A stretch of DNA of 64,000 nucleotides from an uncultured Gammaproteobacteria bacterium (GTDB lineage: Bacteria > Patescibacteriota > Microgenomatia > UBA8517). Made by a program: the position numbers and the translations under genes. Below the pieces are notes generated by a model that was given only the letters and a program-made list of their open reading frames with translations, ran no database searches and was not told where the DNA came from. Positions 3,031 through 21,716 of the stretch are shown here, piece by piece. The stretch is from NCBI GenBank assembly GCA_965231135.1, contig OZ246419.1:513488-577487 (forward strand), read 5' to 3'. How positions within the stretch are numbered: position 1 is the first letter of the stretch; the number at the start of each line of letters is the position of its first letter.

Positions 3031-5229
3031 TTACAAATTTGCTCGAGATTTTCTTAGTTTGGAGATTATAAAGACTACAATTAATCCGAACATTGGAACT
3101 ATTAACCAGGCTAGATTAATAACTGTTTTGTGGCTTGCTACTTTTGATGTTGTATTTGCTCCAAGAACTTGACCTGCGCTTGTTGTAAGAGAAGCTACCA
3201 ATACTTTTTGTTGAGTTTTATTTAAATTTGATGAAACATATGTCCCTGTTGGGTTTGATGTGTTGGTTGTACTTGAATCGTTATTTGAAGAGCTGGAATT
3301 ATTTGAATTGTTTGATGAACTATTATTTTGGTTATTTGACCCTTCGACTTCACTCAGGGCGCTTCCAGCGTCTGTTTGGCCTGGAGTGACAAAGTTACCT
3401 AGCCAACTGCCAAACACGTTTACCACTGTTACTACTAAATGTCCGCCTCCTGTTATATTGTTGTTCACAAAATTTACAAGATTAGCAATTATATTTGCAT
3501 TGCCTGTAGAGATATTTGAGTTTCCGTTTGTGTTGTAACTTGCATCATTATTTCCGGTGTTTGCTGACAAATTAATATTATTAACTACGTTTGCATTGTT
3601 TGTTTGGGTGACGTTGTTATTTGTTGTATTTGAAACGTTACTATTATTTGTTGAGTCTGCGCCATTATTTGAATTTGTTGCAGTAATATTTCCATTTGCA
3701 TCGGCTGTAAAGGTAGTGCCTGCGCTTCCTGCTGTATTTCCGTTGCCTCCAATAATTTGGCCAATCCACTCTCCTGCATTATTTACCAAGACAAGCCACC
3801 AATTGCCACCGTCAACGTTTGTATTTGCAATGTTTAAGGTTTGTGCATCGACACTTGCGCTTCCAGTTTGAACAGACGAATCTCCACTTGTGTTGTAGTT
3901 TGTACTATTTCCTCCGGTATTTGCAGTGTAATTAAGGTTGTTTTGGATATTTGCTGCATTTGTTTGAGCCAAATTATTATTTGTTGTATTAGAACTATTT
4001 GTGTTGTTAGTTGAATCAGCACCATTTCCTGTATTTGATGCATTTGCATTAACTACTGCACAACCGCAGTCAGCAATAGCTGAATCTGGAAGAACAATAT
4101 CTCCGTTTAAGTTTCCATAAATGTTGACTTCGTTATATATAACTTGACCGTCAAGATTATTGTTTGCGAAAGTCAAAACATTGGCATCAACATTTGCATT
4201 GCCTGTTGAAATATTTGAATCTCCTCCTGTATTTCGAGAAGATGTATTATTTCCAGAATTGCTTGCAAGATTTAAAGTGTTGCCGACTGTGGCGTCATTG
4301 TTTTGGAAAGTATTATTGTTGGTTATTGATGAACTATTGGAATTATTTGTTGAATCACTGCCGTTTCCTGTATTTGTTGATGAACTAGACCCTGTTTGGC
4401 ATCCTGTGATGCAAGTTCCAGAACCTGGATTTAAAATTAAATCTCCGTTTTGATCACCGTTGACATCAAATTCGTTGACATTTACTCCGTCAACATTAGA
4501 ATTTAGCGCAGTTATAACTGTTCCTGAAGTATTAGCATTTCCTGTTGTGATACTAGAATTACCTCCCGTATTTCGTGATGCAGAATTATTTCCAGTATTT
4601 GTGTTTTGAGTTAAATTATTCCCAACAGTTGCTGAATTATTCTGAGTTGTATCATTATTCGTTGTAGTTGAGCTGTTTGAATTATTGGTTGACCCTGAAC
4701 CATTATCGGTATTTCCAACAGTAGCTGACGGACTTGAATCTCCTAATGATGCCGAATTATTATTTGCATTTGTAACAATTGCTGCTGAATTGTCAGCTGA
4801 ACCGGTATTTATATTGGCACCGCTGCCTGCATTTGATGTTTGGTTTCCGGTTTGATTGCCTGTATTACCAGTTGTGTTTTGAGTATTTGCTGGAGCATTT
4901 GTTGGAGTTGGTGTGTTTGTATTTTGGTTATTATTAGAATTGTTATTTGTGTTTCCATTTGATGGTGTATTGGGAGTAGGCGTTGATACTGCAGGAGCAG
5001 TCGGCATTGGTGCAGGTGTTATTGTTGCAAGAGGCGGAGGAGTTGCTACTGGAGGAGCGGTTGGCGCTGGAGGAGGGGTTACTTGTGATGATGGATTTGG
5101 TGTAGAAATTGCAGGTGCTGTTGGGGCCGGAGGAGGGGTAATATCATCAGCGAAAGTTATTACAGGTGCCTGAATTAAAAGCATTAAGCTGATTATTAAA
5201 ACTGATATTAATTTATTTACTTTTTTCAT
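3031..5229 (-). CDS. giant cell-surface repeat protein (signal peptide, Pro-rich stalk, about 5 Asn/Ser/Thr/Gly-rich repeats, C-terminal TM anchor)
   Basis: N-terminal signal peptide MKKVNKLISVLIISLMLLIQAPVITFA. TPPPAPTAP linker. About 70-aa repeats of pattern GNGxDSTNNSN...NTGG..S..TGNA. CxC pairs (TGC, DCGC). C-terminal hydrophobic segment followed by KLRKSR tail. Confidence 0.8.
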   Translation of the reverse strand: MKKVNKLISVLIISLMLLIQAPVITFADDITPPPAPTAPAISTPNPSSQVTPPPAPTAPPVATPPPLATITPAPMPTAPAVSTPTPNTPSNGNTNNNSNNNQNTNTPTPTNAPANTQNTTGNTGNQTGNQTSNAGSGANINTGSADNSAAIVTNANNNSASLGDSSPSATVGNTDNGSGSTNNSNSSTTTNNDTTQNNSATVGNNLTQNTNTGNNSASRNTGGNSSITTGNANTSGTVITALNSNVDGVNVNEFDVNGDQNGDLILNPGSGTCITGCQTGSSSSTNTGNGSDSTNNSNSSSITNNNTFQNNDATVGNTLNLASNSGNNTSSRNTGGDSNISTGNANVDANVLTFANNNLDGQVIYNEVNIYGNLNGDIVLPDSAIADCGCAVVNANASNTGNGADSTNNTNSSNTTNNNLAQTNAANIQNNLNYTANTGGNSTNYNTSGDSSVQTGSASVDAQTLNIANTNVDGGNWWLVLVNNAGEWIGQIIGGNGNTAGSAGTTFTADANGNITATNSNNGADSTNNSNVSNTTNNNVTQTNNANVVNNINLSANTGNNDASYNTNGNSNISTGNANIIANLVNFVNNNITGGGHLVVTVVNVFGSWLGNFVTPGQTDAGSALSEVEGSNNQNNSSSNNSNNSSSSNNDSSTTNTSNPTGTYVSSNLNKTQQKVLVASLTTSAGQVLGANTTSKVASHKTVINLAWLIVPMFGLIVVFIISKLRKSRANL

Positions 5230-5312: not shown

Positions 5313-6587
5313 TTACATGTTGAAATGTAAAGCGTTTAACAAATCTTGCAAACTGAATGTCAAAGTGACATTAGTATTTGAACCACTCCAAGGGAATGGA
5401 AGAGTTGTTACGTCAGTTCCGAAGAAGTTAGCATTTCCCTGATTGTTTATATCAGTTGTATTGCTTGAATCTCCAGTTGATACTGATGGATCGCTGGTTG
5501 CTCCAGTGTTGGAGTTAATTTTATTATCTCCAGACTTTGAGTTTCCATTAAGATCATTGTTCGTATCTCCACTATTGGCTTGTCCAATCTGTTGTCCGTT
5601 TGTTAAGTCAGCGTTGATAGTATCATCTGTATGATGATTATATTTATCGCTTGCACCATTGCCTGCAATCTTTGCTGTAACATCCATTAAACAATCGCAT
5701 CCAACATTTGCATCGTTAAAATTAACGGCAGTGTCAGCTGAAACGTTTGTAACGGCGTTACCGGTGTCGATTGTTACATCTCCACCCCAAGGATCGGTTT
5801 GACCGCCTGTATTATCATCTGCTGTGTTTTTACCAGTGTTTGATTTTGCATAAACATTGTTATCGACACTTGCAGAGTTGGTTTGTCCAAGGACAACCCA
5901 ATCAGTAAGTCCAAGATTTACTTTATTGTGTGAATCTGAACCATTTCCTGAAATTATTACAGAATCAGTTGAACCTGTGCTACCATCTCCATTTCCAACT
6001 TGTGCAACGTTTTGGTTTGCATTTGTTGTAACTGAAACGTTTGTTGTAGCATTTCCTGTTGAAACACTGACAGATCCTCCTGTGTTATCACTTGCGTGAT
6101 TGTCACCTGAGTTTGCACTTACATTTTTAACATTGTTATTAACGTCTGCTGAATTGGTTTGAGTCAATTCGGTTTGGTTTTTAACTTGTGTATTTGCAGT
6201 GTTTTGTGATTTGTCACCGTTTCCTGTGACGTTGACATCAAGGTCACCAGTCGAGCATCCGCAATTACTTACGTTTGCAACGTTGCTGTTGACAGCATTA
6301 TTGACTGTAACGTTTGTCTTTGCGTTTCCTGTATCAACACTTGCATCTCCTCCAGTATTGTGGCTTGCATTATTGTCACCACTATTTGCTGAAGATGATA
6401 CGTTGTTGCTGATAGTAGCTGAATTGGATTGACTTACTTGAGTTGTTTGAGTCACGCTTACGTTTGCATTATTATTTGAATCTGAACCATTTCCTGAAAT
6501 TGTGATTGTGTCAGCAAATGCAGGGGTAACGGATGCAAAAACTAATGCAGCGGTTGAAACTATAGCAAAAATTTTTTTAATATTCAT
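5313..6587 (-). CDS. secreted repeat protein, paralog of 3031..5229
   Basis: Signal peptide. Same repeat grammar (GNGSDS..ANSGDN.AS.NTGG..SV.TGNA.TNV) and CxC pairs (NCGC, GCDC). No C-terminal anchor. Confidence 0.8.
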   Translation of the reverse strand: MNIKKIFAIVSTAALVFASVTPAFADTITISGNGSDSNNNANVSVTQTTQVSQSNSATISNNVSSSANSGDNNASHNTGGDASVDTGNAKTNVTVNNAVNSNVANVSNCGCSTGDLDVNVTGNGDKSQNTANTQVKNQTELTQTNSADVNNNVKNVSANSGDNHASDNTGGSVSVSTGNATTNVSVTTNANQNVAQVGNGDGSTGSTDSVIISGNGSDSHNKVNLGLTDWVVLGQTNSASVDNNVYAKSNTGKNTADDNTGGQTDPWGGDVTIDTGNAVTNVSADTAVNFNDANVGCDCLMDVTAKIAGNGASDKYNHHTDDTINADLTNGQQIGQANSGDTNNDLNGNSKSGDNKINSNTGATSDPSVSTGDSSNTTDINNQGNANFFGTDVTTLPFPWSGSNTNVTLTFSLQDLLNALHFNM

Positions 6588-6892: not shown

Positions 6893-8035
6893 ATGAAAAG
6901 TGAGAGAGAGAAAAAATTACAAAATGAATTATATAGACCGTCTCACGAGTTAGCGTGGATGTTAGGAATATTAGCAGGCGGTTCGTTTACACGCGGATAT
7001 GCTGTTGGTATAAGAGAAAATAATAAACAAGTTCTTGCACAAATCAATTCAATCGGAATTGGAATATTTGGAGTAACTCCGGAATTTGAATTTAAACGTT
7101 GGCATTTAAAATTTACAACTAGACAGGCAATAGGAGATTTTAGTAGATCTGAATGGCCTAATACTCTCACTTCTAATTATTCTTGGGTTTTAAATAAAGA
7201 TTATGCATCAGACTTTTTGTCCGGATATCTGGATAAAAATGGGGGTATTTATCCGAGAGCAAATGGGGGCTGTATTACCCAATTTAGTACTTCAAGAAAT
7301 GAATCTGCCGATATTCTTATTGATATGTTGAATACACTTAATATTAATGGAAGTAATAAAACTTATGAAAAAAGAAGGCAGGATAAACTTTCTGACGGTT
7401 TAACTGGAATTGCTTTAACTGCGATTTCAGATCAATTAGATTTATTTAACAATATATACACTTGTATTTCAGATAGACAACAAATCATTGATAATTTGAA
7501 ACAAACTTATGTAAATCTAAGATTAGTTGATCCAGAAAAAGTTGATATATATGAAAAAGTAATAAAGATTAGAAAAGAGCATCCAGAAATGGGCGCGGTG
7601 AAAATTAAAAAGTTTCTTTCTGATAAACAAAAGAATCGCCGCGATATTAGTACTTTTACCATACAAAAGTGGATTTATATTGATTCACGACCTGATAGAT
7701 TTCCAGTTAAGCGACTTACGAAGAAGTCTGATGGATTTGGAGGACTTAGCGATCTTCTTTTGTACAGGATTAATAAGGAGAGACGAAATGAAATAGCTGA
7801 AGTCCCATATATAATTCTAAGGCTGGGGGAAAGAATAAACAAAGAAGGAAACACAAACAATGAAGATTTGTTAAATATATTATATCGAGCTTGGACAATA
7901 CTTAAAGAATCGGAAAAAATTCCAAATTTGAGGCAACAGGTCTTATTTGCACTTTTATCTAAAGACTATAAAGAGTTGTTGCAAAAAATTTACCTGGTTG
8001 AACGAATTATTAAACAAAGGATAGATTACGAATAA
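6893..8035 (+). CDS. free-standing degenerate double-LAGLIDADG (homing-endonuclease-like) protein with C-terminal extension
   Basis: ELAWMLGILAGGSF and DFLSGYLDKNGG resemble the two LAGLIDADG motifs of a single-chain homing endonuclease, but the acidic catalytic residues are replaced. Confidence 0.4.
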   Translation: MKSEREKKLQNELYRPSHELAWMLGILAGGSFTRGYAVGIRENNKQVLAQINSIGIGIFGVTPEFEFKRWHLKFTTRQAIGDFSRSEWPNTLTSNYSWVLNKDYASDFLSGYLDKNGGIYPRANGGCITQFSTSRNESADILIDMLNTLNINGSNKTYEKRRQDKLSDGLTGIALTAISDQLDLFNNIYTCISDRQQIIDNLKQTYVNLRLVDPEKVDIYEKVIKIRKEHPEMGAVKIKKFLSDKQKNRRDISTFTIQKWIYIDSRPDRFPVKRLTKKSDGFGGLSDLLLYRINKERRNEIAEVPYIILRLGERINKEGNTNNEDLLNILYRAWTILKESEKIPNLRQQVLFALLSKDYKELLQKIYLVERIIKQRIDYE

Positions 8036-8039
8036 AAAA

Positions 8040-8201
8040 TTAATTTTTTGGATGAATGTGGAGATTTGAGGTCTTTTTAATATTTCTTACAGTTATTTGA
8101 GTTACTTCACCTTTTTGTACATAGATTTCTATCGATCCGTAATCCGGGACAGATTTCAAGGCTTCTTTTATTTCTTCGATTAAGTCTTTAGATACTTTCA
8201 T
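8040..8201 (-). CDS. DUF2292/YezD-like small protein (53 aa, not in ORF track)
   Basis: Translated as MKVSKDLIEEIKEALKSVPDYGSIEIYVQKGEVTQITVRNIKK... Matches the YezD-type pattern (KEAL...YGSVEI.VQ.G.V.QI). Lies 9 nt downstream of the 8211..8795 gene. Confidence 0.5.
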   Translation of the reverse strand: MKVSKDLIEEIKEALKSVPDYGSIEIYVQKGEVTQITVRNIKKTSNLHIHPKN

Positions 8202-8210
8202 TAATTTAAA

Positions 8211-8795
8211 TTAGAGTGTTAAAGGGATTTTTTGTTTATCTCCTTTAATTTCTCCAACTTGAAGTACAAAATTCTTATCTGAGGTATTAACTGTAAAGCC
8301 TAATCTGGAATAAACTGTGGAAATTGCTTGGACCGTAACGGGATCGTTGTCGACAGTTGGCGCAAGCCAGGTGTTTTGATCTCCGTTTGCTGAAAGTCTG
8401 ACATAATCTTTGGTATTAATGCTTATTGGCTGGTCAAAAGAATTTGTTAATGCAAGAGTAACAATTAGAAATGTTCTTCCTGTTACTGCTGTAGCTTCCT
8501 GACCTTGAATAACTATTTGATTGTTGAGCGCTGCATTTTGAATTACAAATTTTACAGTTTCAGGATTTCCGTTTGATGTGCTTGCTGTATTGCCAATTGG
8601 AAAATCAAATTCTTTATTTAGATTTTCTGCTTTTTGTGGGGCGCTAATATTTACACCAGCAATTTTTGGTTTCGCATTTTTTCCTGTGAGAACTTTTATC
8701 CCTAAAAACAAAACTATAACGACAACAATAGCGAGCAAAATATATTTTCTTGATTTAGGATTTATTTTTGAAATAAACTGTCTTATTCGCCCCAT
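8211..8795 (-). CDS. membrane-anchored DUF4352-like beta-sandwich protein
   Basis: N-terminal TM helix and beta-rich ectodomain. Operonic with the GH18 gene. Confidence 0.4.
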   Translation of the reverse strand: MGRIRQFISKINPKSRKYILLAIVVVIVLFLGIKVLTGKNAKPKIAGVNISAPQKAENLNKEFDFPIGNTASTSNGNPETVKFVIQNAALNNQIVIQGQEATAVTGRTFLIVTLALTNSFDQPISINTKDYVRLSANGDQNTWLAPTVDNDPVTVQAISTVYSRLGFTVNTSDKNFVLQVGEIKGDKQKIPLTL

Positions 8796-8834
8796 AATTT
8801 GTAGGCTTGATCTTACAAGAGTGGTTGGGGATTG

Positions 8835-10370
8835 TCAAGGATTTATTGCAACCCATGGAGAGCTATCTGGATTTTCTCGGGAAGCTGCCGGGCTATCTCC
8901 CTGGGTCCACCATTTTGCTTGGTAAGGGACTCCATTTAAAATTACTTTAGAACCTGCTTCGTAAATTGCAGTTCCTGACCACTGGGGATAAGTTCCTGGA
9001 GCAACTGTTGGAACTGGAATTGGCGTTTCACCTGGTAAGACTGGACCAACTAATTGCCAAGGAGTCTGGAAAGATTGCAAAACTGGATTATCTGGAAGAT
9101 CGCCCTGGGTCCACCATTTTGCAACATAAACATTGTGATGCCAGACAATTTTTGTACCTTCTAAATATGTAGCGTCAGCTGACCAGATTTGGTAAGGACT
9201 TGTAGCTGGGTCGTCTGGGGTTTCAATATCTTTTTGGTCTGCGACAGTTGTTTTTGCAGCACTATCAGAAATTTTTCCAGATAAACCTGCCTGCAAAAGA
9301 TTGCTAAACGCAAACTTGTCTTCTTTGACTCCGCTACAGGAATCGGAAACGATTTGTGTATTTACATAATTTTCGCCACACTCGATATCACGATTAGCTG
9401 ACCACATAGAAAGCCTTGCAATCTGATTTTGCTCTATAAATGTATTTAAAACTTTTGCATCATCAAGAGTAAAGACCTCGTCTTCGGTATCATTTTGGCC
9501 AATCATTGGAGTTGCTCCAATTTTTCCCCAAATTGATGCACTATTTAAATGAATTCCTGCATTGTCATATAGAATTCCTAACTGCCTATGAGTATTATTT
9601 AAGGCATCAGTATTTGCTTCCTGCAAACTTCCATTTGCTGGAAGAGTTCCATAATCCATAGTCATTACATTTACTCCGGCCAAATCAACTCCGCTATTTA
9701 GCATTGTGGTGATTGCATCTGTTCCATCCTCGGTTAATCCGTTTGGAGCAACTGGCAAAGTTAACCAGACTGCTAAAGATTTATTTTGATTTTTCATGTC
9801 TTTTTGTAATTTGGCAATAGTGTCAGCTCTTCTTTTCATCGCGTCTTTATTTTGTAAATTACTTCCTTCGATATCTAAATCAATAGTGTCAACGCTGTAA
9901 TGGGCGATTACGCTTTTATAAGCATTATATAAATCGCTTTCTTTGGTACAGTTGATTGCAAGCTCGTCGTTTAACTGCCCTCCAAAAGAAATGGCGATAT
10001 TGCCGCCCAATTGTCTAAATCTTGCGATTCTTCGATCTAAATCTAATTTTGAATTTGCATCGTTAATTGTGTAGGCATTTCCCCATGAAGGAGTACAAGG
10101 ATTTGTGCTATCTGAAACAATAAAAGATAAAACAATATTTTTATTTATACTTGCATTGTCTGTCTGCTCAAAACTAAATGAAGGCGTAGCCGTAATATCA
10201 ACATACGGAGCAAACCAGGGGTTTGACTGAATGGTTGGTTTTTCTGCTTTGATTTTGTTCCACCCTAAAAATGCGCCGTAAGAAATTGCGCCTAATATTA
10301 ATAAGCCCAAAAATAATCTTGGAATTGATAATCTTTTACCTTCGTGCATCAGGATAAAACTCCTTTCCAA
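8835..10370 (-). CDS. GH18 family chitinase with two C-terminal CBM5/12 chitin-binding modules
   Basis: Catalytic DTIDLDIEG (DxDxDxE) and MDYG motifs. Two repeats YxxGxxV...Y.AKWWTQGD.P typical of CBM5/12. N-terminal TM/signal anchor. Confidence 0.8.
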   Translation of the reverse strand: MERSFILMHEGKRLSIPRLFLGLLILGAISYGAFLGWNKIKAEKPTIQSNPWFAPYVDITATPSFSFEQTDNASINKNIVLSFIVSDSTNPCTPSWGNAYTINDANSKLDLDRRIARFRQLGGNIAISFGGQLNDELAINCTKESDLYNAYKSVIAHYSVDTIDLDIEGSNLQNKDAMKRRADTIAKLQKDMKNQNKSLAVWLTLPVAPNGLTEDGTDAITTMLNSGVDLAGVNVMTMDYGTLPANGSLQEANTDALNNTHRQLGILYDNAGIHLNSASIWGKIGATPMIGQNDTEDEVFTLDDAKVLNTFIEQNQIARLSMWSANRDIECGENYVNTQIVSDSCSGVKEDKFAFSNLLQAGLSGKISDSAAKTTVADQKDIETPDDPATSPYQIWSADATYLEGTKIVWHHNVYVAKWWTQGDLPDNPVLQSFQTPWQLVGPVLPGETPIPVPTVAPGTYPQWSGTAIYEAGSKVILNGVPYQAKWWTQGDSPAASRENPDSSPWVAINP

Positions 10371-12475
10371 TCAATTTCTTGTTTTGGTTCAGTTTTTATT
10401 GGTTCTGCTTTTTCTTCTCTCTTGGCATCAACATACATCCAATTTGTTAAACCAAGATAAGTATCTGTTAGTAAATCAAAAAGACCAATGTATGCGACAA
10501 TTGCCCAAGTTGCGGCTAGTGCATTAAAAGCTGCAAAGGCTGCATTGCCCCAATTACTAATAAGAACATTTCTGTAAATTGTAAAAACTGAGAAAGCTAC
10601 AATTAAAACCGGGACAATAACATAAATCATTCCTGAAGCTGTTCTATTTTTAACCTTAGGAGTTCTAGCAAAAGGAATTTTCTTTCCTGTTACTGCCTGC
10701 TCAACTGATTTGATAACTCCAGCTAAATTAACTGGAAGCATAATTAAATTAAATCCGTAAATTCTAAAAATATCGCTATATTTATAGCCGCAATACTTCA
10801 AATCAGAAGCCTGCGCAATAAAATAGGGAAGCGCTGCAAGCAAAACTAACGGGCTAAGCAACCTTCCATCATAAGGATAGGCAAGAAGAAAAATTAAACC
10901 AAAAGTTGCCCAGGCAATTGAGGCAAGATAATTCATACGTAGCATTACTTCCAATTTTGATTTTTTATTTGCCTGCGCAAGTAATTTTGGCATGATAATT
11001 AAACCACCGTTTGCCCATCTACGGCGCTGAACAACTAATGAACCGAAATCAGGAGGAGTTGCGCTGTAGCTTAATCTTTCCGGATAATTTACAAGATCCC
11101 AACCTTTTGAAGTCATATCAATACTTGATTCAGTATCTTCTATAACTGTGCGGTCTTGGATGTATCTTTTGATTACATTTCCGTTTTCATTGTCATATTC
11201 GACAATGTCATCAAGAGCATTTTTTCTAATAATTGCATTTGCTCCAACCCAGAAAGTGGCTCCATACTGAGTCATTCCCTGATGCAAAATATGCTGAATG
11301 TCTGTAGTTGCACCAGCTAATCTTTCAATACGAGAAAAAGCGCCTCTAAAAGATGAATAAGGAGTTTGAGTGACTGCAACTTTGCTGTTTTGCGGCTGCA
11401 TTAAAAAGTAAACTAAACGTAAACAATATTCCGGAAGAAGAACAGAATCAGCATCAAGGGTTAATAAAAATTCACTATCGGGAATTAATTTTCCTTCAAA
11501 CTTTGTTCCCATTATTCCAATATAAGAATTTAAATTCATGGCCTTATTTGCTTCCTGTGAAAGAGTTGGGTGAAGTTTTCTTTCAAAAGAAGTTAATTTT
11601 CCTTCAAATATCCAGGTCAATCTTTCGTAAAGCTCGAAAACGCGATCGTATGAAAGCTTACCATCTTCCTGCATGGAAATTTCTAAAGCTTCTTCTATTT
11701 TAGTAAGGTCAACAGCTAATTTTCTTAAAACTTCGTTGGCAAAGAAAATATCGACATGATCTTCAATTTTTTCTTCATCTGCCATTTTATTAAGCCAGCG
11801 TGCTGCAAACCTGTATTCGTTGGCTAAATTTCTAATAGCTTTTTTATTGACAGTTTTATTTCTTTTAAACTCGTTGAATGACTTTTGAACTCGTTTGTAC
11901 GGTCCTGATAAGAGTTTTTCAATTTCAATTGGTAAGTTTCTTGCGTCATCTAAGCGTTTTGCATCTTCTGGATTTTTGGGATTTGGATTATTGTCGATTA
12001 ATAAAACTACATTTGTTTTTGGATATTCCTGCAAAACTGCAGATAAAAGAGTTTTACGAATGACAGATTTTTCTTCATTATAAGATGGGACTAAAACTGT
12101 AATTCCTGGTTTATTTTTACTAAAAAATTTATCAAGAATGCTTCTTGCAACTCTTTCGTGCTTTGCAAATCTTTTAAGTGCACCGTGGCGTTCTATAAGA
12201 TAGATTAAAGATGAGAAAGTAAGGAAAGTGACAACAAGGGCGTAGCTAAAAGCTTCCATAGTAAAGTGATAGCTTTGTGGCCCGTCGATAAGCTGCCTAA
12301 TGATAATTGAAAAAATATAAAGGACCCAAAAAACAACTGTTAAGACGATCGCGACACGGCTTAAAGTCAATTTAAAAGGGGATGGCTTGGCATGCAAAAA
12401 AGAAAGAGGGGTAGTATTTTTTTCTGCACCCCACTGATGTTTGCGGACAAGCTTTTTCTGAGACATAACCATCAA
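10349..12475 (-). CDS. processive family-2 glycosyltransferase, chitin-synthase-like (QTP / TED / QRRRW motifs)
   Basis: VLVPSYNEE, DADS, VTQTPYSSF, VIEDTES and QRRRWANG motifs. Multiple TM helices at both ends. About 150-aa coiled-coil insertion inside the GT-A domain. Confidence 0.75.
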   Translation of the reverse strand: MMVMSQKKLVRKHQWGAEKNTTPLSFLHAKPSPFKLTLSRVAIVLTVVFWVLYIFSIIIRQLIDGPQSYHFTMEAFSYALVVTFLTFSSLIYLIERHGALKRFAKHERVARSILDKFFSKNKPGITVLVPSYNEEKSVIRKTLLSAVLQEYPKTNVVLLIDNNPNPKNPEDAKRLDDARNLPIEIEKLLSGPYKRVQKSFNEFKRNKTVNKKAIRNLANEYRFAARWLNKMADEEKIEDHVDIFFANEVLRKLAVDLTKIEEALEISMQEDGKLSYDRVFELYERLTWIFEGKLTSFERKLHPTLSQEANKAMNLNSYIGIMGTKFEGKLIPDSEFLLTLDADSVLLPEYCLRLVYFLMQPQNSKVAVTQTPYSSFRGAFSRIERLAGATTDIQHILHQGMTQYGATFWVGANAIIRKNALDDIVEYDNENGNVIKRYIQDRTVIEDTESSIDMTSKGWDLVNYPERLSYSATPPDFGSLVVQRRRWANGGLIIMPKLLAQANKKSKLEVMLRMNYLASIAWATFGLIFLLAYPYDGRLLSPLVLLAALPYFIAQASDLKYCGYKYSDIFRIYGFNLIMLPVNLAGVIKSVEQAVTGKKIPFARTPKVKNRTASGMIYVIVPVLIVAFSVFTIYRNVLISNWGNAAFAAFNALAATWAIVAYIGLFDLLTDTYLGLTNWMYVDAKREEKAEPIKTEPKQEIDWKGVLS

Positions 12476-12506
12476 TTATAGGGTAGTTCTTGTGAAATTT
12501 CAAGAG

Positions 12507-14192
12507 CTAATAACAATAAAGAGTTGATGCAGAACTGGATACTAGCTTATTAATTTTTTTGCAGGGAAGGTTGGCCACTCTTTGAAATTTTATATTTTGT
12601 TCTGTTAGGAGTGTGTAGTTTGAGTAAAATTCCTGGGATTTTACTTTAAAGGTATTTCCCGAGTCTCTCATCTCTTCAAATTGTGTGTTTTCTGCCTGCA
12701 TTCCTAAAATATTAGTGTTTAACGCGGCAATGAAATATAGAGAATTATTGATAAATATAAGTGTGAAGATTGTAATTGAAAAGAATTTGGTAAATTTATT
12801 TTTATCAAAAGCAACAAGTATTGGAATCAATAAAACAAAAGGTATTAATTCAATTTGAGATACATAACGAAGAAGGTTTGGAGTTGGAACAACTAAACTT
12901 GCAATTGTAATAAGCGTAAAAGCAAAAAAAGATACATATATAGAATATTTTTGACGCATTGTATCTGCATTAAATGACATATATATAGTAAAAATAAAAC
13001 TTGCAAGAACTATTCCTGAGAAAAGAGGACCTGTTGCACCAACTCGATTATTGAAAAGTTTTGAAGCATCGTCAATCTCTTTAATACTAAAGGTAAAAGG
13101 TAATTTTAAATAAGCTCGATTCGAGATGCTTCTTGTATCGCCTGCACTTGCGACTTGCGATCTACCGAAAATTCCATAAACATAAAGAATGATTGGATTG
13201 GCGTATTTTAGATTTTGCGGAAGATTATTATATTTGACACTGCCGTTGAGAGCTGGAATGTTTGTTGGATAAAAAGGAGTTTGGTAAAAATAAATATTTT
13301 TAATATAAGGTATCCAGGAAAATATAAATGAAACAAGTATTACCAAAAAAATAAAAAGTTTTGCAGTTTTATTTAAGAAATATTCTTTGTTCATAAATCG
13401 ATTTATGACTATAACCATGAAGATTATGCCAAGAAGACCTGCAACTGGAAGCAAACTATATTTTGAACTTGCCAAAAATATTTCAGCGCTTATAAAGGAA
13501 ATTAAACTCCAATAGTTTTTCTTTTTAAGAATAAAGACAATAAGACTACTTATTGCAATTATTGTAATCTCGTAGGCAAGACCATCCTGCATAAAACTAA
13601 ATTGTTGATTTATAAATAATGGCTGAAAACAAACCAGAAATGAAAGAAACACCGATAGAAAAGTTTTAATTTTAATTTTTTTAAGTAAGATAAATGTAAA
13701 GAGCATTGCGATTAGCAAAAAGATAAAATTAATTATTTTTGCGGAATTAACTGACCCGACAACGTTGTAAATACTTGCTTCGATTTCCCAAGACATTGTT
13801 GGATATCCCTCGGCAAAAACTTGACTTGGAAGTCTAACTGGAAAATTTATAGTTTTTTGCCAAACCGGATTCCAACCTTTGGAGAGAGCAATTACTGCTG
13901 TTTGATGATATCCTTGACCATCCCAGCTTAAATCATATGTTTTTCCAATTAAAAGAGATAATCCAAGAAAAATAAACGAAGTAATTACAAATATTAATAG
14001 AGGTGTAAAGTTTTTTGTTTTATTCTTTTGTGTAAGAAAATAAATCGATAATATGAATATGTAAAAGAAAAAACTTATTGGAAGAGTATAAGATGAAATG
14101 GGGATTTTTAAGAAAAATCCGAGGCGGATGAGCAAGACCTCAAAAATAAAAAATTCAAAAAAAAGGAAAGTAAATTTCTCAATTTTCTTCAT
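12507..14192 (-). CDS. polytopic integral membrane protein (GT-C-like or polysaccharide-associated, function unknown)
   Basis: 561 aa with more than 10 predicted TM helices. Sits between the two processive GT2 genes. Confidence 0.5.
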   Translation of the reverse strand: MKKIEKFTFLFFEFFIFEVLLIRLGFFLKIPISSYTLPISFFFYIFILSIYFLTQKNKTKNFTPLLIFVITSFIFLGLSLLIGKTYDLSWDGQGYHQTAVIALSKGWNPVWQKTINFPVRLPSQVFAEGYPTMSWEIEASIYNVVGSVNSAKIINFIFLLIAMLFTFILLKKIKIKTFLSVFLSFLVCFQPLFINQQFSFMQDGLAYEITIIAISSLIVFILKKKNYWSLISFISAEIFLASSKYSLLPVAGLLGIIFMVIVINRFMNKEYFLNKTAKLFIFLVILVSFIFSWIPYIKNIYFYQTPFYPTNIPALNGSVKYNNLPQNLKYANPIILYVYGIFGRSQVASAGDTRSISNRAYLKLPFTFSIKEIDDASKLFNNRVGATGPLFSGIVLASFIFTIYMSFNADTMRQKYSIYVSFFAFTLITIASLVVPTPNLLRYVSQIELIPFVLLIPILVAFDKNKFTKFFSITIFTLIFINNSLYFIAALNTNILGMQAENTQFEEMRDSGNTFKVKSQEFYSNYTLLTEQNIKFQRVANLPCKKINKLVSSSASTLYCY

Positions 14193-14277
14193 GAGACTTG
14201 ACTATAAAATCCTTTAATACACAATTCTTACAAATTATTGTAATAAATTTGTAAACTTCAGCTTATTCTTAAGCTTC

Positions 14278-16281
14278 ATGTGGGAAAGTGATCTTAAATT
14301 AGATAAATATATTTATGTTCGCGATAACCCGCTTTTAATAAAAACACTTGGTCTTGTAGGTCTTGTGACAACATTAATTATGGCCTACGGGTTTTGGAAA
14401 TTTTTTCATGTAAGTATTTTTTATTTAATTTTTTTTGGACCAATTGTTTTTATTTTTATTGTAAATAAAGTTTTAAGATATGCGATACAGTTGTTTTATC
14501 CAAAGTTTGACATAGAGCGTCATGAAGAATTCGTCTCAAACTTTTGGGCAACTCATGAAGAACCGTCTGTCGATATTTTTTTGCCTTGGGCAGGCGAAGA
14601 CTTAAAAATACACGAAGAAGTTGTAAAAGCTGTTAATAATTTAAATTATAAAAATTTTAAAGTATACATGCTTGATGATGGAGGATTGCCAGAACATAAA
14701 AGTCTTGCTGATAAGTATAAATTTAATCATTTACAGCGACCAAATAGGGGTGAATTTAAAAAATCTGGAAATTTACAATATGGGTACGATCATTCTTCTG
14801 GAGAGTTTGTATTTATACTTGATGCAGATTTTATTCCAACACGTGATAGTTTACATGACCTAATTCCTTATATCGCAAGCGATAATCAAATGGGAATTTT
14901 ACAAACTCCTCAGTATTTTGAGCAAACAAAAAAAGTGCATAAAAGGTCTGCAATAGAGTTTGGGGGAGGAAATATTGTTGAGGAGTTTTATAAAATTAAT
15001 TTGCCATGCCGAGATGTATTTAGAGCTTCAATGTGTGTTGGTACTTCAGCAATTTACAGGCGAACTGCAATTATGAAACTTGAAGGAACTCCAAAAGTGC
15101 ATGCAAGCGAAGACCTTGCGACTGGACTTCTTGTTACACAACATGGATATTATGTTAAATATTTGCCACTTATTTGCAGCATGGGTACGAGCCCTGAAAC
15201 TTTTCAAGGATATTTTAAACAACATCAAAGATGGTGTAGCGGAAATATTGTTTTTGCAAAATATTGGCCTCAGGCAAGACTTAATCCTATTGCAAGAATT
15301 ATTTATTTATCAAACCCCAGTTATTATTTGGCCGAAGCTTTGGGGATATTTTTCTCTTTTCAGTTTTTAGCACTTTTATATTTCAATGGAAATACATTAA
15401 ACATTCGTAATGTCATCTATTTTTTGCCTTATCTTTTTTACAGCCGAGTTTTGGTTCCGCTTTCTAAAACTAATAAAAATAAACTAGGGACAAGACTTGC
15501 AGCGCTTTCGAATGCGTATACATATATTTATACATACATTCACATGATTGTTTCTGGTGTTCCAAAATGGCATCCGACTGGAGTGAAAATTACAAAAATG
15601 CACAAAGATTTTTTGCATGCAATAGATATTGGAATAGTTTTGTCTTCCGTTTTTATAATCTCTTTTTTATTTGTAATATTTAAAAGACCTCAAATACTTG
15701 GAAACTATAATGCATATTTGATTTTGGGATGGGCTGTTTATTCGGCATTTTGGCACGGAGTTTTTTTGTTTCTTGCTTCAAGATTTATTTTGCAAAACAC
15801 TATTTCTGATGCAAACAGCCCTTTCAAAAAGATTTATCTTTATACAAAAAGCCATTTGTCCATTTTGTTAATAATTATTCTTTTTGGGGCACTTATTTTT
15901 AATGCAACTATTGCTTTTAAAAATCCAGATGCACCAACAGTTCTTGCATTGAACGAGCTGACTGGTAGAGATACAACTAGAATTGCTTTAAATACTTCTT
16001 CTCCGACTTCAAACCAAATTGTTGTTGCTCCAAATCAGACACCTGCGACTTTTAAATATAAAGCGCAAAAGGGAGATTCACTTACAAAATTGGCTGTTAA
16101 CGCAATAAGAGATTATGAGAAAACAAACAAAATGAGTTTAACGGCTAAGCAAGAAAATTTTGCTGCGGCGAAAATTGTCGCAAATATAACTAAGAAAGGA
16201 ATATTAAAAATTGGAGATGAAATTGATTTTGATCCAGTACTTCTTAATAAAGAAATTACTGTGGCAGAGAATATTCGCTAG
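14278..16281 (+). CDS. processive family-2 glycosyltransferase (cellulose/chitin synthase-like) with C-terminal LysM-like domain
   Basis: YMLDDGG, ILDADF, QHQRWCSGN (QxxRW) motifs. N- and C-terminal TM helices. C-terminal YKAQKGDSLTKLA resembles a LysM motif. Confidence 0.7.
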   Translation: MWESDLKLDKYIYVRDNPLLIKTLGLVGLVTTLIMAYGFWKFFHVSIFYLIFFGPIVFIFIVNKVLRYAIQLFYPKFDIERHEEFVSNFWATHEEPSVDIFLPWAGEDLKIHEEVVKAVNNLNYKNFKVYMLDDGGLPEHKSLADKYKFNHLQRPNRGEFKKSGNLQYGYDHSSGEFVFILDADFIPTRDSLHDLIPYIASDNQMGILQTPQYFEQTKKVHKRSAIEFGGGNIVEEFYKINLPCRDVFRASMCVGTSAIYRRTAIMKLEGTPKVHASEDLATGLLVTQHGYYVKYLPLICSMGTSPETFQGYFKQHQRWCSGNIVFAKYWPQARLNPIARIIYLSNPSYYLAEALGIFFSFQFLALLYFNGNTLNIRNVIYFLPYLFYSRVLVPLSKTNKNKLGTRLAALSNAYTYIYTYIHMIVSGVPKWHPTGVKITKMHKDFLHAIDIGIVLSSVFIISFLFVIFKRPQILGNYNAYLILGWAVYSAFWHGVFLFLASRFILQNTISDANSPFKKIYLYTKSHLSILLIIILFGALIFNATIAFKNPDAPTVLALNELTGRDTTRIALNTSSPTSNQIVVAPNQTPATFKYKAQKGDSLTKLAVNAIRDYEKTNKMSLTAKQENFAAAKIVANITKKGILKIGDEIDFDPVLLNKEITVAENIR

Positions 16282-17260
16282 AATAAATTGTATTATTTAA
16301 GCCAGATTTTACAGAGTTAATATAATTAGTTGATTTTTCAATCCTCCAGTCAACTTCACCAAGATTAGATTTGTCTTCGTTAAAGAAGATAATTGCTTTG
16401 ATTTGTGGAAATGTGTCTGGAAGTTCTGTAAGTAATTGTGAAAGCCAAGTCGCTTTGTAATCATTTGGCACAGAATTTGTTTCTGATAACATAATTGGTT
16501 TTGCAGTTATGCTAGTTAATTCCTGATATGATTGCTCAAATACATTTTTAAAGGGAGTTTTTCCCCAATTGTAGCCATCAAGCGCAACCCAATCTACAAA
16601 GCCATCTCCTGGATAAAGCTCCTTATAGGGAATTGTGTTTTGTCCTGTTGTATTGAAAGATAAAACCCATTGGACGTTAATTGCACCGTTATTTTTTAAA
16701 ACATTATGAAAATGAATCCATGCATTTTTGAAATCATTGTTTGTGCTATTTAGCAAAGGAATGCTCCAATACATTTGGGGGAGATTCATTTCCCAAGCAA
16801 AACGAAGGAGGATCGGCTTATTGTAACTTTTTAAGTTGTCTGCAATTTCTTTTAGAAATTGGTCGCAAGAACCACTGGCAATTTTTTGATATAGATTATC
16901 TTCTTTTTTTCCTGGACAGCCAGCAAAAAAATAGGGATTTGAACTTACCATTGGTACCCAACCATGTGAAGAGATCTGGTTTAAATTATTTATAAATTCG
17001 GGGCTTGCTAAATATTCCCAACCGTCGTAAAAATTAGCGATCGCCATTTTTTTACCGAGGGTATTTTGAAAATTAAAAAGAGGACTAATATTTAATTTTT
17101 GATTTTCCCAAAAACCTCCAACCCAGGCACCGACATAAATTTGTTTTTCGTTTTTTACCATATTTTGTTCTGGAACTGATTGTGTTTTTTGTTTTTCCTT
17201 AAATATGAAAAACAAGCTGATTACGGCAAAAAATAAAAGTGCATAAAAAATATTTTTCAT
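16256..17260 (-). CDS. secreted GH26-like glycoside hydrolase (mannanase/beta-glycanase family)
   Basis: Signal/TM at N-terminus. LLRFAWEMN matches the GH26 RFxHEMN catalytic-acid region. TIM-barrel-like pattern. Confidence 0.5.
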   Translation of the reverse strand: MKNIFYALLFFAVISLFFIFKEKQKTQSVPEQNMVKNEKQIYVGAWVGGFWENQKLNISPLFNFQNTLGKKMAIANFYDGWEYLASPEFINNLNQISSHGWVPMVSSNPYFFAGCPGKKEDNLYQKIASGSCDQFLKEIADNLKSYNKPILLRFAWEMNLPQMYWSIPLLNSTNNDFKNAWIHFHNVLKNNGAINVQWVLSFNTTGQNTIPYKELYPGDGFVDWVALDGYNWGKTPFKNVFEQSYQELTSITAKPIMLSETNSVPNDYKATWLSQLLTELPDTFPQIKAIIFFNEDKSNLGEVDWRIEKSTNYINSVKSGLNNTIYSSEYSLPQ

Positions 17261-17559: not shown

Positions 17560-18204
17560 ATGGATGTCAAGAGGTATATTTTATTTGCAGCTGGAATCTT
17601 ATTTGGATTAAGCGTTGTCTTTATTTATAAAATAATTACAACTCACCCTGCAGAGCCAATCGGAAATATTGTGCAAAATATTGCAAAGCCTGACTTTGAT
17701 ATTTCCAAAGCTCCAAGCCAGTCTATTCAAGGAAAAATTTTATCTATGAGCGGAAATATTTTTTGGGAAAGCAGAACTGCAACAGAATCTTCACAAATAA
17801 GTTATCCGCAGATACTTCAACAGGGAGAAAGTTTGCAAACAGGAGATAACGGAAATGCGCAAGTTGAATTTCCAAATGAAGCAGAAATAATAATGGATGC
17901 AAAAACAGAAATTGATTTTATACAAACCCTGCCAACAGAGTTTGTTGTAAATATTGCAAGCGGATCGGCGACATTTACAAAATTAAACGACCCTCTGGAA
18001 ATAAGAGCTGGGCATTTATTGACAAAAATAAATAGCGGACAAACAAAAATTGGAATTGATGAAACAGGGAATATAAATTTGAATATCATAAGCGGATCAA
18101 TAACCAGCGCTTATAATGATCAAAATCTTGTTAGTCATGAAGAAGATTTTAATTCTCCACAAAGATTTACATTTGACGATTTGACAAGGAAATTTGTTTT
18201 TTGA
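17560..18204 (+). CDS. membrane-anchored beta-sandwich protein (FecR-like fold, function unknown)
   Basis: N-terminal TM helix, then beta-rich domain. Confidence 0.4.
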   Translation: MDVKRYILFAAGILFGLSVVFIYKIITTHPAEPIGNIVQNIAKPDFDISKAPSQSIQGKILSMSGNIFWESRTATESSQISYPQILQQGESLQTGDNGNAQVEFPNEAEIIMDAKTEIDFIQTLPTEFVVNIASGSATFTKLNDPLEIRAGHLLTKINSGQTKIGIDETGNINLNIISGSITSAYNDQNLVSHEEDFNSPQRFTFDDLTRKFVF

Positions 18205-21640: not shown

Positions 21641-21716
21641 GGTGGCTGTAGCTCAGTTGGTTAGAGCGCGTGCCTGTGGAGCATGAGGTCGGCAGTTCGA
21701 GACTGCTCAGCCACCC
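21641..21716 (+). tRNA. tRNA-His(GTG)
   Basis: Cloverleaf with extra 5' G-1 pairing C73. Anticodon loop CTGTGGA. T-arm GGCAG-TTCGAGA-CTGCT. Confidence 0.85.

What the first reader, a model, noticed from the sequence alone, without database searches (positions are those of the whole stretch)
8040..12475. Operon pairing a chitin-synthase-like GT2 (QTP/TED/QRRRW) with a GH18 chitinase bearing two CBM5/12 modules
The 708-aa membrane GT2 has the motif set of processive beta-glycan synthases, including VTQTPYSSF (QTP), VIEDTES (TED) and QRRRWANG. The exact QRRRW pentapeptide is the chitin-synthase/NodC-type signature rather than the cellulose-synthase Q(R/V)xRW form. Its stop overlaps the start of a GH18 enzyme (DTIDLDIEG catalytic motif) that ends in two AKWWTQGD chitin-binding CBM5/12 repeats. 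It is followed by a DUF4352-like anchored protein and a 53-aa DUF2292/YezD-like protein. A co-transcribed chitin (or GlcNAc-polymer) synthase and chitinase set is unusual for bacteria. It would imply synthesis and trimming of a chitin-like surface polymer by this organism.
Basis: partly seen in the sequence, partly recalled or inferred. Interest (0 to 1): 0.75.

Follow-up and report, generated by a model that had tools for sequence, protein, structure and literature searches.

The report
Conserved bacterial glycan-synthase plus chitinase gene pair
A membrane sugar-polymer synthase and a membrane-anchored chitinase are encoded as a tightly coupled gene pair in this candidate-phyla bacterium and in hundreds of other bacteria, which suggests, without proving, that many bacteria make and trim a chitin-like surface polymer using an enzyme unrelated to fungal chitin synthases.

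Summary
On the minus strand, a 705-aa membrane GT2 (12466-10349) ends in TGATG, sharing one base with the start of a 504-aa GH18 (10349-8835). The GH18 has an intact catalytic core and two CBM5/12 modules. The GT2 is not chitin-synthase-like. It has only QRRRW of the CHS signature, scores below threshold on Chitin_synth_2, and by sequence and fold is closest to cellulose synthases. It belongs to a distinct, uncharacterised family marked by a ~120-residue helical insertion. The pairing is not rare. All 85 related loci examined carry GT2 and GH18 side by side, in Patescibacteria, cultured Micrococcales, a Bacillota genome and Ktedonobacteria, and the two proteins co-evolve (Mantel r=0.87). Nothing else is conserved with them. 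DUF2292 and the 194-aa gene are local passengers, and the upstream 561-aa membrane protein belongs to a separate neighbouring module (CelA-like GT2 plus GH26). Relatives with the same catalytic motifs are fused to CE4 deacetylase, LCP ligase, acyltransferase or EAL domains. Best reading (about 0.55): a minimal synthase-dependent system that extrudes a β-1,4-GlcNAc (chitin-like) polymer, which the anchored chitinase processes. Product identity is inferred, not shown. I found no prior description.

The parts
12475..12503 (-). Sigma-70-like promoter TTGAAA-N17-TATAAT directly upstream of the GT2. The ATG at 12466 lies 8 nt after the -10 box, so the mRNA would be nearly leaderless.
   Evidence: 11 of 12 matches, the best site in 7900-14400. 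Promoter-like sites are not enriched over shuffles overall (15 found against 22.9 expected), so this rests on position only. Sequence read.
10349..12466 (-). Processive membrane GT2 synthase (705 aa; the longest ORF starts at 12475). It belongs to a new family that is cellulose-synthase-like in architecture.
12161..12379 (-). Two N-terminal transmembrane helices of the GT2 (residues 33-105).
   Evidence: AF2 secondary structure and hydropathy.
11606..11971 (-). Four-helix insertion (residues 169-290) inside the GT-A domain, between the first Asp motif (LLIDNNP) and NKAMNLN. It is the family hallmark. From my own knowledge, plant CesA carries its P-CR insertion at the same topological position.
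   Evidence: It is the best-predicted part of the model (pLDDT about 90). The ~150-residue spacing is conserved in almost all of the 125 representatives.
11015..11455 (-). Catalytic motifs: DAD 341-343, QTPY 370-373, FWVGAN 408-413, IEDTES 445-450, QRRRW 483-487.
   Evidence: Invariant in 86 of 86 orthologues and conserved in 125 distant representatives, apart from the middle residue of QRxRW.
10655..10681 (-). KIPFARTPK, a candidate gating loop. The comparison with BcsA's FxVTxK motif is from my own knowledge.
   Evidence: F, R, T, P and K are invariant in 86 of 86. The loop lies between TM helices and has low pLDDT.
10436..10957 (-). C-terminal interface and transmembrane helices forming the presumed polymer channel. 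The C-terminus is cytoplasmic.
   Evidence: TM parity in natural fusion proteins.
8835..10349 (-). Membrane-anchored GH18 chitinase with two CBM5/12 modules (504 aa). Its ATG shares one base with the GT2 stop codon.
10260..10337 (-). Conserved cytoplasmic KRLSIPR motif followed by a single N-terminal TM anchor (N-in, C-out).
   Evidence: 79 of 83 orthologues have the anchor, and the (R/K)RLSxxR motif recurs in every phylum sampled.
9297..10220 (-). GH18 catalytic domain, with the DxDxE core at 9867-9890.
   Evidence: S128-F-G-G131, D164, D166, E168 and W323 are invariant in 83 of 83. PDB 9buf 5e-50, 2dsk 4e-24.
9063..9194 (-). CBM5/12 module 1 (YVAKWWTQGD).
   Evidence: K418, W419 and W420 are conserved in at least 82 of 83.
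8859..8984 (-). CBM5/12 module 2 (YQAKWWTQGD).
   Evidence: residues 463-504. PDB 2d49, a chitinase C chitin-binding domain, 1e-4.
8211..8795 (-). 194-aa single-pass membrane protein. It is a local passenger and not part of the conserved module.
   Evidence: No homologue in any of the 85 related loci. DUF4352 only E=0.049. It has its own promoter-like site at 8838-8810.
8040..8201 (-). 53-aa DUF2292 protein. It is a local passenger and not part of the conserved module.
   Evidence: PF10055 3.8e-8. Absent from all 85 related loci.

Best explanation
The core of the finding is a self-contained two-gene cassette. The GT2 is a processive, membrane-integrated synthase. It would take a UDP-sugar in the cytoplasm, most likely UDP-GlcNAc, add it to the growing chain and push the chain through its own transmembrane channel. 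The GH18 is made from the same mRNA by translational coupling. It is held at the outer face of the membrane by one N-terminal helix, docks on the product through two CBM5/12 modules, and cuts, trims or releases it. This is the role BcsZ plays for bacterial cellulose and PgaB for PNAG (comparison from my own knowledge). The most likely product is a β-1,4-linked GlcNAc, chitin-like polymer on the cell surface. Shown here: gene structure, domain identities, conserved catalytic residues, strict co-occurrence and co-evolution, and fold class. Inferred: the donor sugar, the linkage, a physical complex between the two proteins, and the biological role.
For: (1) Coupling. The stop and start share one base. 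Most orthologous pairs overlap by 1-4 nt. The GH18 is adjacent in 85 of 85 loci, with otherwise unrelated flanks. Distances in the two proteins correlate (Mantel r=0.87, 0 of 999 permutations as high), and the odd taxa have the same neighbours in both trees. (2) The GH18 looks active and chitin-directed. DxDxE, SxGG and the conserved Trp are invariant in 83 of 83. Its closest solved relatives are chitinases. It carries two CBM5/12 modules with conserved Trp-Trp. GH18 catalysis needs the substrate's own 2-acetamido group (established knowledge). (3) Independent support for an N-acetylated product. Relatives at 38-50% identity have the same catalytic motifs and the same insertion, and are fused to CE4 de-N-acetylases in 6 representative clusters. 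One of those clusters has 18 members from independent assemblies. Other relatives are fused to LCP wall ligases, an acyltransferase, or EAL domains. (4) Topology fits. All 7 GH18 or CE4 fusions have an odd number of TM helices after the cytoplasmic loop, and 3 of 4 EAL fusions have two. (5) The GT2 has the fold and motifs of channel-forming synthases. (6) Internal contrast. The same window holds a separate CelA-like GT2 paired with a GH26 β-glucanase, and that module is conserved elsewhere. The hydrolase partner therefore seems to track the polymer, and this genome already has a likely β-glucan synthase.
Confidence: 0.55

Rival explanations
1. The GT2 makes a different GlcNAc-containing polymer, such as β-1,6 PNAG, a mixed-linkage polymer or a heteropolymer with GlcNAc at some positions. 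The GH18 cleaves or remodels it at GlcNAc residues.
For: PgaC_IcaA is the second-best NCBIfam match (60.7 bits). The CE4 domains fused to relatives are nearest to the PNAG deacetylases PgaB and IcaB. MatB shows that a GT2+CE4 fusion can make PNAG. HAS, a heteropolymer synthase, is as close in fold as BcsA.
Against: From my own knowledge, the known PNAG hydrolases are GH20 and GH153 and none is GH18. The closest solved relatives of this GH18 are true chitinases. Paired CBM5/12 modules are typical of enzymes acting on crystalline β-1,4 polymers. The GT2 scores far below the PgaC cut-off (60.7 against 422.3) and has a different architecture: a long insertion and 2 N-terminal plus at least 4 C-terminal predicted TM helices.
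Confidence: 0.2
2. The pair makes short soluble chito-oligosaccharides, as signals or adhesion cues, and not a structural polymer. The 1:1 coupled chitinase would cut the emerging chain to length.
For: Translational coupling implies near-stoichiometric hydrolase, which is unusual for a pure trimming enzyme. The cassette has no export, anchoring or crystallisation partner. Many carriers are Patescibacteria, a group that includes episymbionts (my own knowledge), and the other main carriers are Actinomycetota.
Against: Two CBM5/12 modules argue for an insoluble substrate. Relatives fused to LCP ligases suggest that the family's products are attached to the wall as polymers. The enzyme has a full BcsA-type channel architecture. 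From my own knowledge, NodC by contrast has a closed product pocket.
Confidence: 0.12
3. The GT2 makes cellulose or another β-glucan, and the GH18-CBM protein is an unrelated chitinase for feeding on, or attacking, fungal or arthropod chitin. On this view the adjacency reflects co-regulation only.
For: The GT2's nearest characterised relatives are cellulose synthases. JGI annotates family members as 'cellulose synthase (UDP-forming)'. From my own knowledge, some CBM5 modules bind cellulose.
Against: Adjacency in 85 of 85 loci across phyla, start/stop overlaps, co-evolution and co-transfer are hard to explain without a shared function. The GH18 is membrane-anchored in 79 of 83 cases and not freely secreted. 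CE4 fusions in the same family point to an N-acetylated product. The genome has a separate CelA-like GT2 with its own β-glucanase. CelA scores 88 bits against a cut-off of 699.
Confidence: 0.08

Closest known systems
Bacterial cellulose synthase BcsA with its endoglucanase BcsZ (synthase-dependent exopolysaccharide secretion)
   Same: A membrane GT2 with D, DxD, (T)ED and QxxRW motifs and an FxxTxK loop. BcsA is the best sequence and fold match. A glycoside hydrolase for the cognate polymer is encoded in the same operon (the BcsZ comparison is from my own knowledge).
   Different: CelA scores 88 bits against a cut-off of 699. There is no PilZ domain, and no BcsB-like partner is conserved. FFCGS is replaced by FWVGAN. 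The GT-A domain carries a ~120-residue helical insertion. There are 2 N-terminal TM helices; BcsA has 4 (my own knowledge). The partner is a GH18 chitinase, whereas BcsZ is a GH8 cellulase (my own knowledge).
Plant cellulose synthase CesA
   Same: Among the best fold matches, with the longest alignments (TM 0.50-0.53; 473 residues aligned). From my own knowledge: CesA also has 2 N-terminal TM helices, and its P-CR helical insertion sits at the same topological position in the GT-A domain.
   Different: There is no detectable sequence relationship between the insertions. There is no zinc-finger N-terminus and no class-specific region. Oligomerisation of the bacterial protein was not tested.
Eukaryote-type chitin synthases (CHS), including the division-1 CHS genes found in some Proteobacteria (Goncalves et al. 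2016, PMC5122149)
   Same: A processive GT2, the QRRRW pentapeptide, and the predicted product.
   Different: QxFEY, EDRxL and SWG/WGTKG are absent. Pfam Chitin_synth_2 is sub-threshold. These are the weakest fold matches among the synthases. The proteobacterial CHS genes sit in different operons, with an epimerase, DUF1501 and DUF1800, and without a chitinase.
PNAG systems: PgaC-PgaB, IcaA-IcaB and Streptomyces MatB (GT2 fused to CE4)
   Same: A GT2 synthase of a GlcNAc polymer working with an extracytoplasmic enzyme that acts on that polymer. Relatives of the window GT2 are fused to CE4 domains, as MatB is.
   Different: PgaC scores 60.7 bits against a cut-off of 422. MatB's GT2 domain is PgaC-like. 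Here the partner is a GH18. From my own knowledge, a GH18 would be expected to cut β-1,4 and not β-1,6 linkages.
GH18 chitinases 9buf ('Exochitinase 1') and 2dsk/3a4w (deposited simply as 'chitinase'; from my own knowledge these are archaeal Pyrococcus/Thermococcus enzymes)
   Same: Clear homology of the catalytic domain (5e-50 and 4e-24), the same DxDxE, SxGG and MDY motifs, and association with chitin-binding modules.
   Different: The window enzyme is membrane-anchored through an N-terminal helix with a conserved cytoplasmic motif, and it is always encoded next to a GT2 synthase.

Membership tests
Eukaryote-type chitin synthase (CHS) | Pfam Chitin_synth_1 or Chitin_synth_2 at or above the gathering score | tested here: not met
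   Chitin_synth_2 scores 13.6 bits (E=0.026) against a cut-off of 27, and only over residues 121-160. The best of 25 family members reaches E=1.3e-5.
Eukaryote-type chitin synthase (CHS) | QxFEY motif | tested here: not met
   The equivalent is QTPYSSF, invariant in 86 of 86. Motif definition from PMC12653383. That this resembles BcsA's QTPH is from my own knowledge.
Eukaryote-type chitin synthase (CHS) | EDRxL motif | tested here: not met
   IEDTES: the ED pair is present, but it is followed by T-E-S.
Eukaryote-type chitin synthase (CHS) | QRRRW motif | tested here: met
   QRRRW at 483-487. In the wider family the middle residue is R, Q, A, C or E, so it is not under CHS-like constraint.
Eukaryote-type chitin synthase (CHS) | SWG / WGTKG (CON2) loop | tested here: not met
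   The loop reads KIPFARTPK.
Eukaryote-type chitin synthase (CHS) | Closest fold among processive GT2 synthases | tested here: not met
NodC chitooligosaccharide synthase | NCBIfam TIGR04242 at or above cut-off | tested here: not met
   18.4 bits against 550, N-terminal stretch only.
BcsA/CelA cellulose synthase | NCBIfam TIGR03030 or PRK11498 at or above cut-off | tested here: not met
   88.4 bits against 699.1, and 38.2 against 992.
BcsA/CelA cellulose synthase | D, DxD, TED and QxxRW motifs on a GT-A domain joined to a TM channel | tested here: met
   D161, D341-A-D343, E446-D447 and QRRRW. Fold matches to BcsA and CesA over 411-480 residues.
BcsA/CelA cellulose synthase | FFCGS acceptor-site motif (motif recalled from my own knowledge) | tested here: not met
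   The aligned segment is FWVGAN, invariant in the family.
BcsA/CelA cellulose synthase | C-terminal PilZ domain and a BcsB partner (features recalled from my own knowledge) | tested here: not met
   No PilZ hit. Only GT2 and GH18 are conserved across the 85 loci.
PgaC/IcaA PNAG synthase | NCBIfam TIGR03937 at or above cut-off | tested here: not met
   60.7 bits against 422.3.
GH18 chitinase | Catalytic DxDxE with SxGG and the conserved Trp | tested here: met
   D164, D166, E168, S128-F-G-G131 and W323 are invariant in 83 of 83.
GH18 chitinase | Profile or sequence membership | tested here: met
   Pfam PF00704 is marginal (29.1 against 29.6), but solved chitinases match at 5e-50 and 4e-24, and many orthologues pass Pfam.
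GH18 chitinase | Hydrolysis of β-1,4-GlcNAc linkages | not testable with these tools
   Needs an enzyme assay.
CBM5/12 | Pfam PF02839 at or above cut-off, with surface Trp-Trp | tested here: met
   46.1 bits against 26.2, two stretches. The WW pair is conserved in at least 81 of 83.
Synthase-dependent exopolysaccharide system with a cognate hydrolase | A processive membrane GT2 and a co-encoded extracytoplasmic enzyme acting on the product | tested here: met
   That the GH18 acts on the GT2 product is inferred.
Synthase-dependent exopolysaccharide system with a cognate hydrolase | c-di-GMP receptor controlling the synthase | tested here: not met
   None in the window protein or in the pair's neighbourhood. 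EAL domains are fused only in a sister clade.
DUF4352 (for the 194-aa protein) | Pfam PF11611 at or above cut-off | tested here: not met
   14.4 bits against 25.9, E=0.049.
DUF2292 / YezD-like (for the 53-aa protein) | Pfam PF10055 at or above cut-off | tested here: met
   33.2 bits against 22.

The most novel reading that the evidence does not exclude
True polymeric chitin is made by a native bacterial synthase family that arose from the cellulose-synthase lineage, independently of eukaryotic CHS and of NodC. The enzyme would work as an obligate two-subunit machine with a membrane-anchored chitinase. The machine is present in hundreds to thousands of species, including Patescibacteria and common cultured soil Actinomycetota such as Arthrobacter and Leifsonia. 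Sister clades would make deacetylated (chitosan-like), wall-linked or c-di-GMP-regulated versions of the polymer.
Probability: 0.4. Interest if true: 0.85.

Novelty: new variant of a known kind. Interest (0 to 1): 0.68.

Why it matters
Chitin is generally treated as a eukaryotic polymer. The bacterial exceptions I know of are NodC oligomers and a handful of horizontally acquired CHS genes of unknown activity (PMC5122149). If this cassette makes chitin or a close relative, several things follow. Bacterial cell-surface biology would gain a widespread new polymer. Environmental chitin budgets, and the use of chitin or WGA staining as a marker for fungi, would need a caveat. It would also give a second, independent evolutionary route to chitin synthesis, with a different active-site solution. 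Because the cassette has only two genes and occurs in cultured, tractable Arthrobacter, Leifsonia and Paenisporosarcina strains, the question can be tested directly. For Patescibacteria, whose surfaces are little characterised, it points to a concrete candidate surface structure. The modular fusions (CE4, LCP, acyltransferase, EAL, GH18) make the family a natural system for studying how a secreted glycan is tailored.

Tried and rejected
(1) Sequence and profile searches of the GT2 against all PDB chains found only BcsA. No CHS, HAS or NodC appeared, so there is no direct homology argument for a chitin synthase. (2) I looked for a residue-level rule separating GlcNAc from Glc donors in a chitin synthase review and a hyaluronan synthase structure paper. 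None was transferable, and one key paper was not held. None found a paper describing this GT2-GH18 module in CPR bacteria or Actinobacteria. The 'bacterial CHS' of Goncalves 2016 is a different family. (4) A third conserved partner gene: clustering all flanking ORFs of the 85 loci found none. (5) The 561-aa upstream membrane protein as part of the operon: rejected, because it belongs to the neighbouring module of CelA-like GT2 plus GH26. (6) P0241 (1183 aa) as a GT2-GH18 fusion: rejected, because its tail is low-complexity sequence. (7) Recent horizontal transfer as the explanation for the CPR/Actinobacteria sharing: the module's GC equals the host's GC everywhere (0.33-0.71), so none of these copies looks recently transferred. 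(8) Terminator scan: no convincing intrinsic terminator between the GH18 and the 194-aa gene or after DUF2292, so the 3' end of the transcript is undefined.

Full report
**What is in the window.** Four ORFs lie head to tail on the minus strand between 12475 and 8040.

| Gene | Coordinates | Size | Notes |
|---|---|---|---|
| Membrane GT2 | ORF 12475-10349 | 705 aa as deposited, from ATG 12466 | |
| GH18 protein | ORF 10370-8835 | 504 aa as deposited, from ATG 10349 | |
| Single-pass membrane protein | 8795-8211 | 194 aa | |
| DUF2292 protein | 8201-8040 | 53 aa | |

The GT2/GH18 junction reads GTT TTA TCC TGATG, so the stop and start codons share one base. The window comes from a Patescibacteria MAG, GCA_035549555.1, on an 810-kb contig. 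The best sigma-70-like site in the region is TTGAAA-N17-TATAAT, with 11 of 12 matches. It ends 8 nt before the GT2 ATG, which would give a nearly leaderless mRNA. This is a positional argument only, because such sites are not enriched over shuffles.

**Domain checks.**
- CBM5/12 is confirmed: 46.1 bits against a cut-off of 26.2, in two copies.
- GH18 is marginal in Pfam (29.1 against 29.6). It is nevertheless clearly homologous to solved chitinases: 9buf at 5e-50 and 2dsk at 4e-24.
- DUF2292 is confirmed.
- 'DUF4352-like' is only a sub-threshold hint, E=0.049.

**The GT2 is not a chitin synthase by any family test.**
- Pfam gives only generic GT2 families. Chitin_synth_2 reaches 13.6 bits against a cut-off of 27, over a short N-terminal stretch.
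- NCBIfam ranks CelA (88 bits), then PgaC (61), then MdoH (35), then NodC (18). All are far below their cut-offs.
- Against all PDB sequences, the single protein and a 25-member profile find only BcsA.
- The CHS signature is QxFEY, EDRxL, QRRRW and SWG/WGTKG (PMC12653383). Only QRRRW is present. The other positions read QTPY, EDTES and FARTPK, which from my own knowledge resemble BcsA's QTPH, TED and FxVTxK.
- In the wider family the middle residue of QRxRW is R, Q, A, C or E. The pentapeptide therefore carries no information about specificity.

**A distinct family with a hallmark insertion.** Residues 169-290 form four long helices inserted in the GT-A domain between the first Asp motif and NKAMNLN. 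This is the best-predicted part of the model. The resulting ~150-residue spacing is kept in almost all of the 125 full-length representatives. From my own knowledge, plant CesA carries its P-CR insertion at the same topological position and also has two N-terminal TM helices. I treat this as a resemblance, not as homology.

**The pairing is the strong result.**
- A scan of one genome per species found more than 580 loci that encode a relative of the GT2.
- The 80 best, plus five from metagenomes, come from many Patescibacteria lineages. They also come from cultured Micrococcales (Leifsonia, Arthrobacter, Cryobacterium, Frigoribacterium, Herbiconiux and others), from Paenisporosarcina (Bacillota) and from a Ktedonobacteria MAG.
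- In 85 of 85 loci a GH18-CBM5/12 gene lies next to the GT2. Usually it is downstream with a 1-4 nt overlap. In an Arthrobacter-type subgroup it is divergently upstream.
- Clustering all flanking ORFs found no third conserved gene. The 194-aa protein, DUF2292 and the upstream 561-aa membrane protein have no homologues in any of these loci.
- Pairwise distances in the GT2 and the GH18 correlate strongly: Mantel r=0.87, with 0 of 999 permutations as high, and r=0.85 outside the Actinomycetota. The taxonomic outliers have the same nearest neighbours in both proteins.
- The module's GC matches each host's GC, from 0.33 to 0.71, so none of these copies looks recently transferred.

**The GH18 looks like an active, membrane-tethered enzyme.** SxGG, D164-x-D166-x-E168 and W323 are invariant in 83 of 83 orthologues, and the Trp-Trp pair of both CBMs is conserved. 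79 of 83 orthologues have a single N-terminal hydrophobic helix. It is preceded by a cytoplasmic (R/K)RLSxxR motif that recurs in every phylum sampled. That conservation is unexplained. A contact with the synthase is my guess.

**Natural fusions in the wider family.** An exhaustive search of 1.8 billion representative proteins gave 486 clusters at E<=1e-30, down to about 36% identity. They share the same catalytic motifs and the same insertion. Many are 950-1350 aa long and carry C-terminal fusions:

| Fused domain | Representative clusters | Support |
|---|---|---|
| CE4 polysaccharide deacetylase | 6 | one cluster has 18 members from independent assemblies, including a Nitrospira MAG |
| EAL | 4 | one cluster has 6 members |
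| LytR-CpsA-Psr wall ligase | 2 | single-member clusters |
| Acyl_transf_3 | 1 | 2 members |
| DMFA2_C amidase-like | 1 | 17 members |
| GH18 + two CBM5/12 (P0250) | 1 | GH18 part 43% identical to the window GH18; seen once only |

TM-helix parity fits the expected locations. All 7 GH18 or CE4 fusions have an odd number of helices after the cytoplasmic loop. 3 of 4 EAL fusions have exactly two. The synthase core therefore ends in the cytoplasm, and the window GH18's own anchor corresponds to the extra helix in the fusions.

**What this implies for the product.** GH18 catalysis is substrate-assisted and needs a 2-acetamido sugar at subsite -1 (established knowledge). CE4 enzymes remove N-acetyl or O-acetyl groups. 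Two unrelated partner enzymes that both act on N-acetylated glycans, attached to one synthase family with one set of catalytic motifs, make a GlcNAc-based product the most economical reading. The GH18's relatives and the paired CBM5/12 modules favour β-1,4 linkage, meaning a chitin-like polymer. This is inference. CE4 does not fix the linkage: the CE4 of P0270 is nearest to PgaB/IcaB, and MatB, a GT2+CE4 protein, makes β-1,6 PNAG (PMC5972031). I found no residue rule for donor specificity.

**An internal contrast in the same window.** Directly upstream lies an independent module: the 561-aa polytopic membrane protein (14192-12507, minus), a CelA-like GT2 (14278-16281, plus) and a convergent GH26 (17260-16256, minus). 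The GH26 is related to C. thermocellum 'Endoglucanase H' at 2.7e-25. The same three genes, in the same arrangement, recur at 42-56% identity in three independent genomes (four fetched loci, L087-L090) that lack the GT2-GH18 pair. The two GT2s are only 21% identical over 226 residues. This genome therefore already has a probable β-glucan synthase with a matching glucanase, and the hydrolase partner appears to track the polymer.

**Prior knowledge.** I used all ten literature searches (one was rejected for a malformed term) and found nothing on this module. The bacterial CHS genes of Goncalves et al. 2016 are division-1 CHS in Proteobacteria, in different operons and without a chitinase. Database names for both proteins are generic: 'glycosyltransferase family 2', 'cellulose synthase (UDP-forming)', 'chitinase', 'carbohydrate-binding protein'. 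The searchable library is incomplete, so a prior description cannot be excluded.

**Verdict.** The finding is a conserved, mobile, two-gene synthase-hydrolase cassette of an uncharacterised GT2 family. I rate it a new variant of the synthase-dependent exopolysaccharide systems. My confidence in the chitin-like product is about 0.55. Interest is 0.68, because the prediction can be tested directly in cultured Actinomycetota and would be surprising if true.

Noticed in passing
window 12507-17260: A second, independent synthase-hydrolase module sits next to the finding: a 561-aa 12-TM protein with no Pfam or PDB match (12507-14192, minus), a CelA-like GT2 (14278-16281, plus; DAD, SED, QHQRW) and a convergent GH26 related to C. 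thermocellum 'Endoglucanase H' (16256-17260, minus; 2.7e-25). The same three genes recur in the same arrangement in L087-L090 at 42-56% identity. It is probably a β-glucan system, and the role of the 561-aa protein is unknown.
   Followed up: partly
window 18644-19882 (minus): A second GH18, with a strong Pfam hit (3e-33). Its best solved relatives are insect group II and human chitinases (about 1e-16), so it belongs to a different subfamily from the operon's GH18. It lies next to a FecR-like gene (17560-18204) and a 150-aa ORF.
   Followed up: no
window 3031-5229 and 5313-6587 (minus): Two large Asn/Ser/Thr/Gly-rich repeat proteins (732 and 424 aa). Both have N-terminal hydrophobic signal-like segments and no Pfam match, and the larger has a C-terminal hydrophobic anchor. 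They are probably surface proteins.
   Followed up: no
window 6893-8035 (plus): A 380-aa ORF convergent with the end of the operon. It has only a weak LAGLIDADG_3 hint (E=0.029), so it may be a homing-endonuclease-like or DNA-binding protein.
   Followed up: no
window 21661-23211 (minus): A large serine recombinase (Resolvase, Recombinase and Zn_ribbon_recom domains) about 9 kb from the glycan gene cluster. It could mark a mobile or integrated element.
   Followed up: no
GH18 N-terminus: window 10317-10337, and the orthologues in L001-L085: A cytoplasmic (R/K)RLSxxR motif just before the TM anchor is conserved from Patescibacteria to Actinomycetota, although the rest of the N-terminus is not. 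Its function is unexplained. It could be a contact site for the synthase or a regulatory site.
   Followed up: partly
P0271 and its cluster (Nitrospiraceae MAGs): Members of the same GT2 family are fused to a DMFA2_C domain (N,N-dimethylformamidase β-subunit-like; 4.6e-113). The cluster has 17 members. An amidase-like domain on a glycan synthase has no obvious precedent, and it might be an alternative de-N-acetylase.
   Followed up: no
L006, L009, L012, L016, L023, L028, L029: These MAGs are labelled Gammaproteobacteria, Bdellovibrionales or Pseudomonadales, but their copies of the module branch among the Patescibacteria copies and the loci have GC of 0.37-0.52. The record titles may be taxonomic mislabels.
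   Followed up: no
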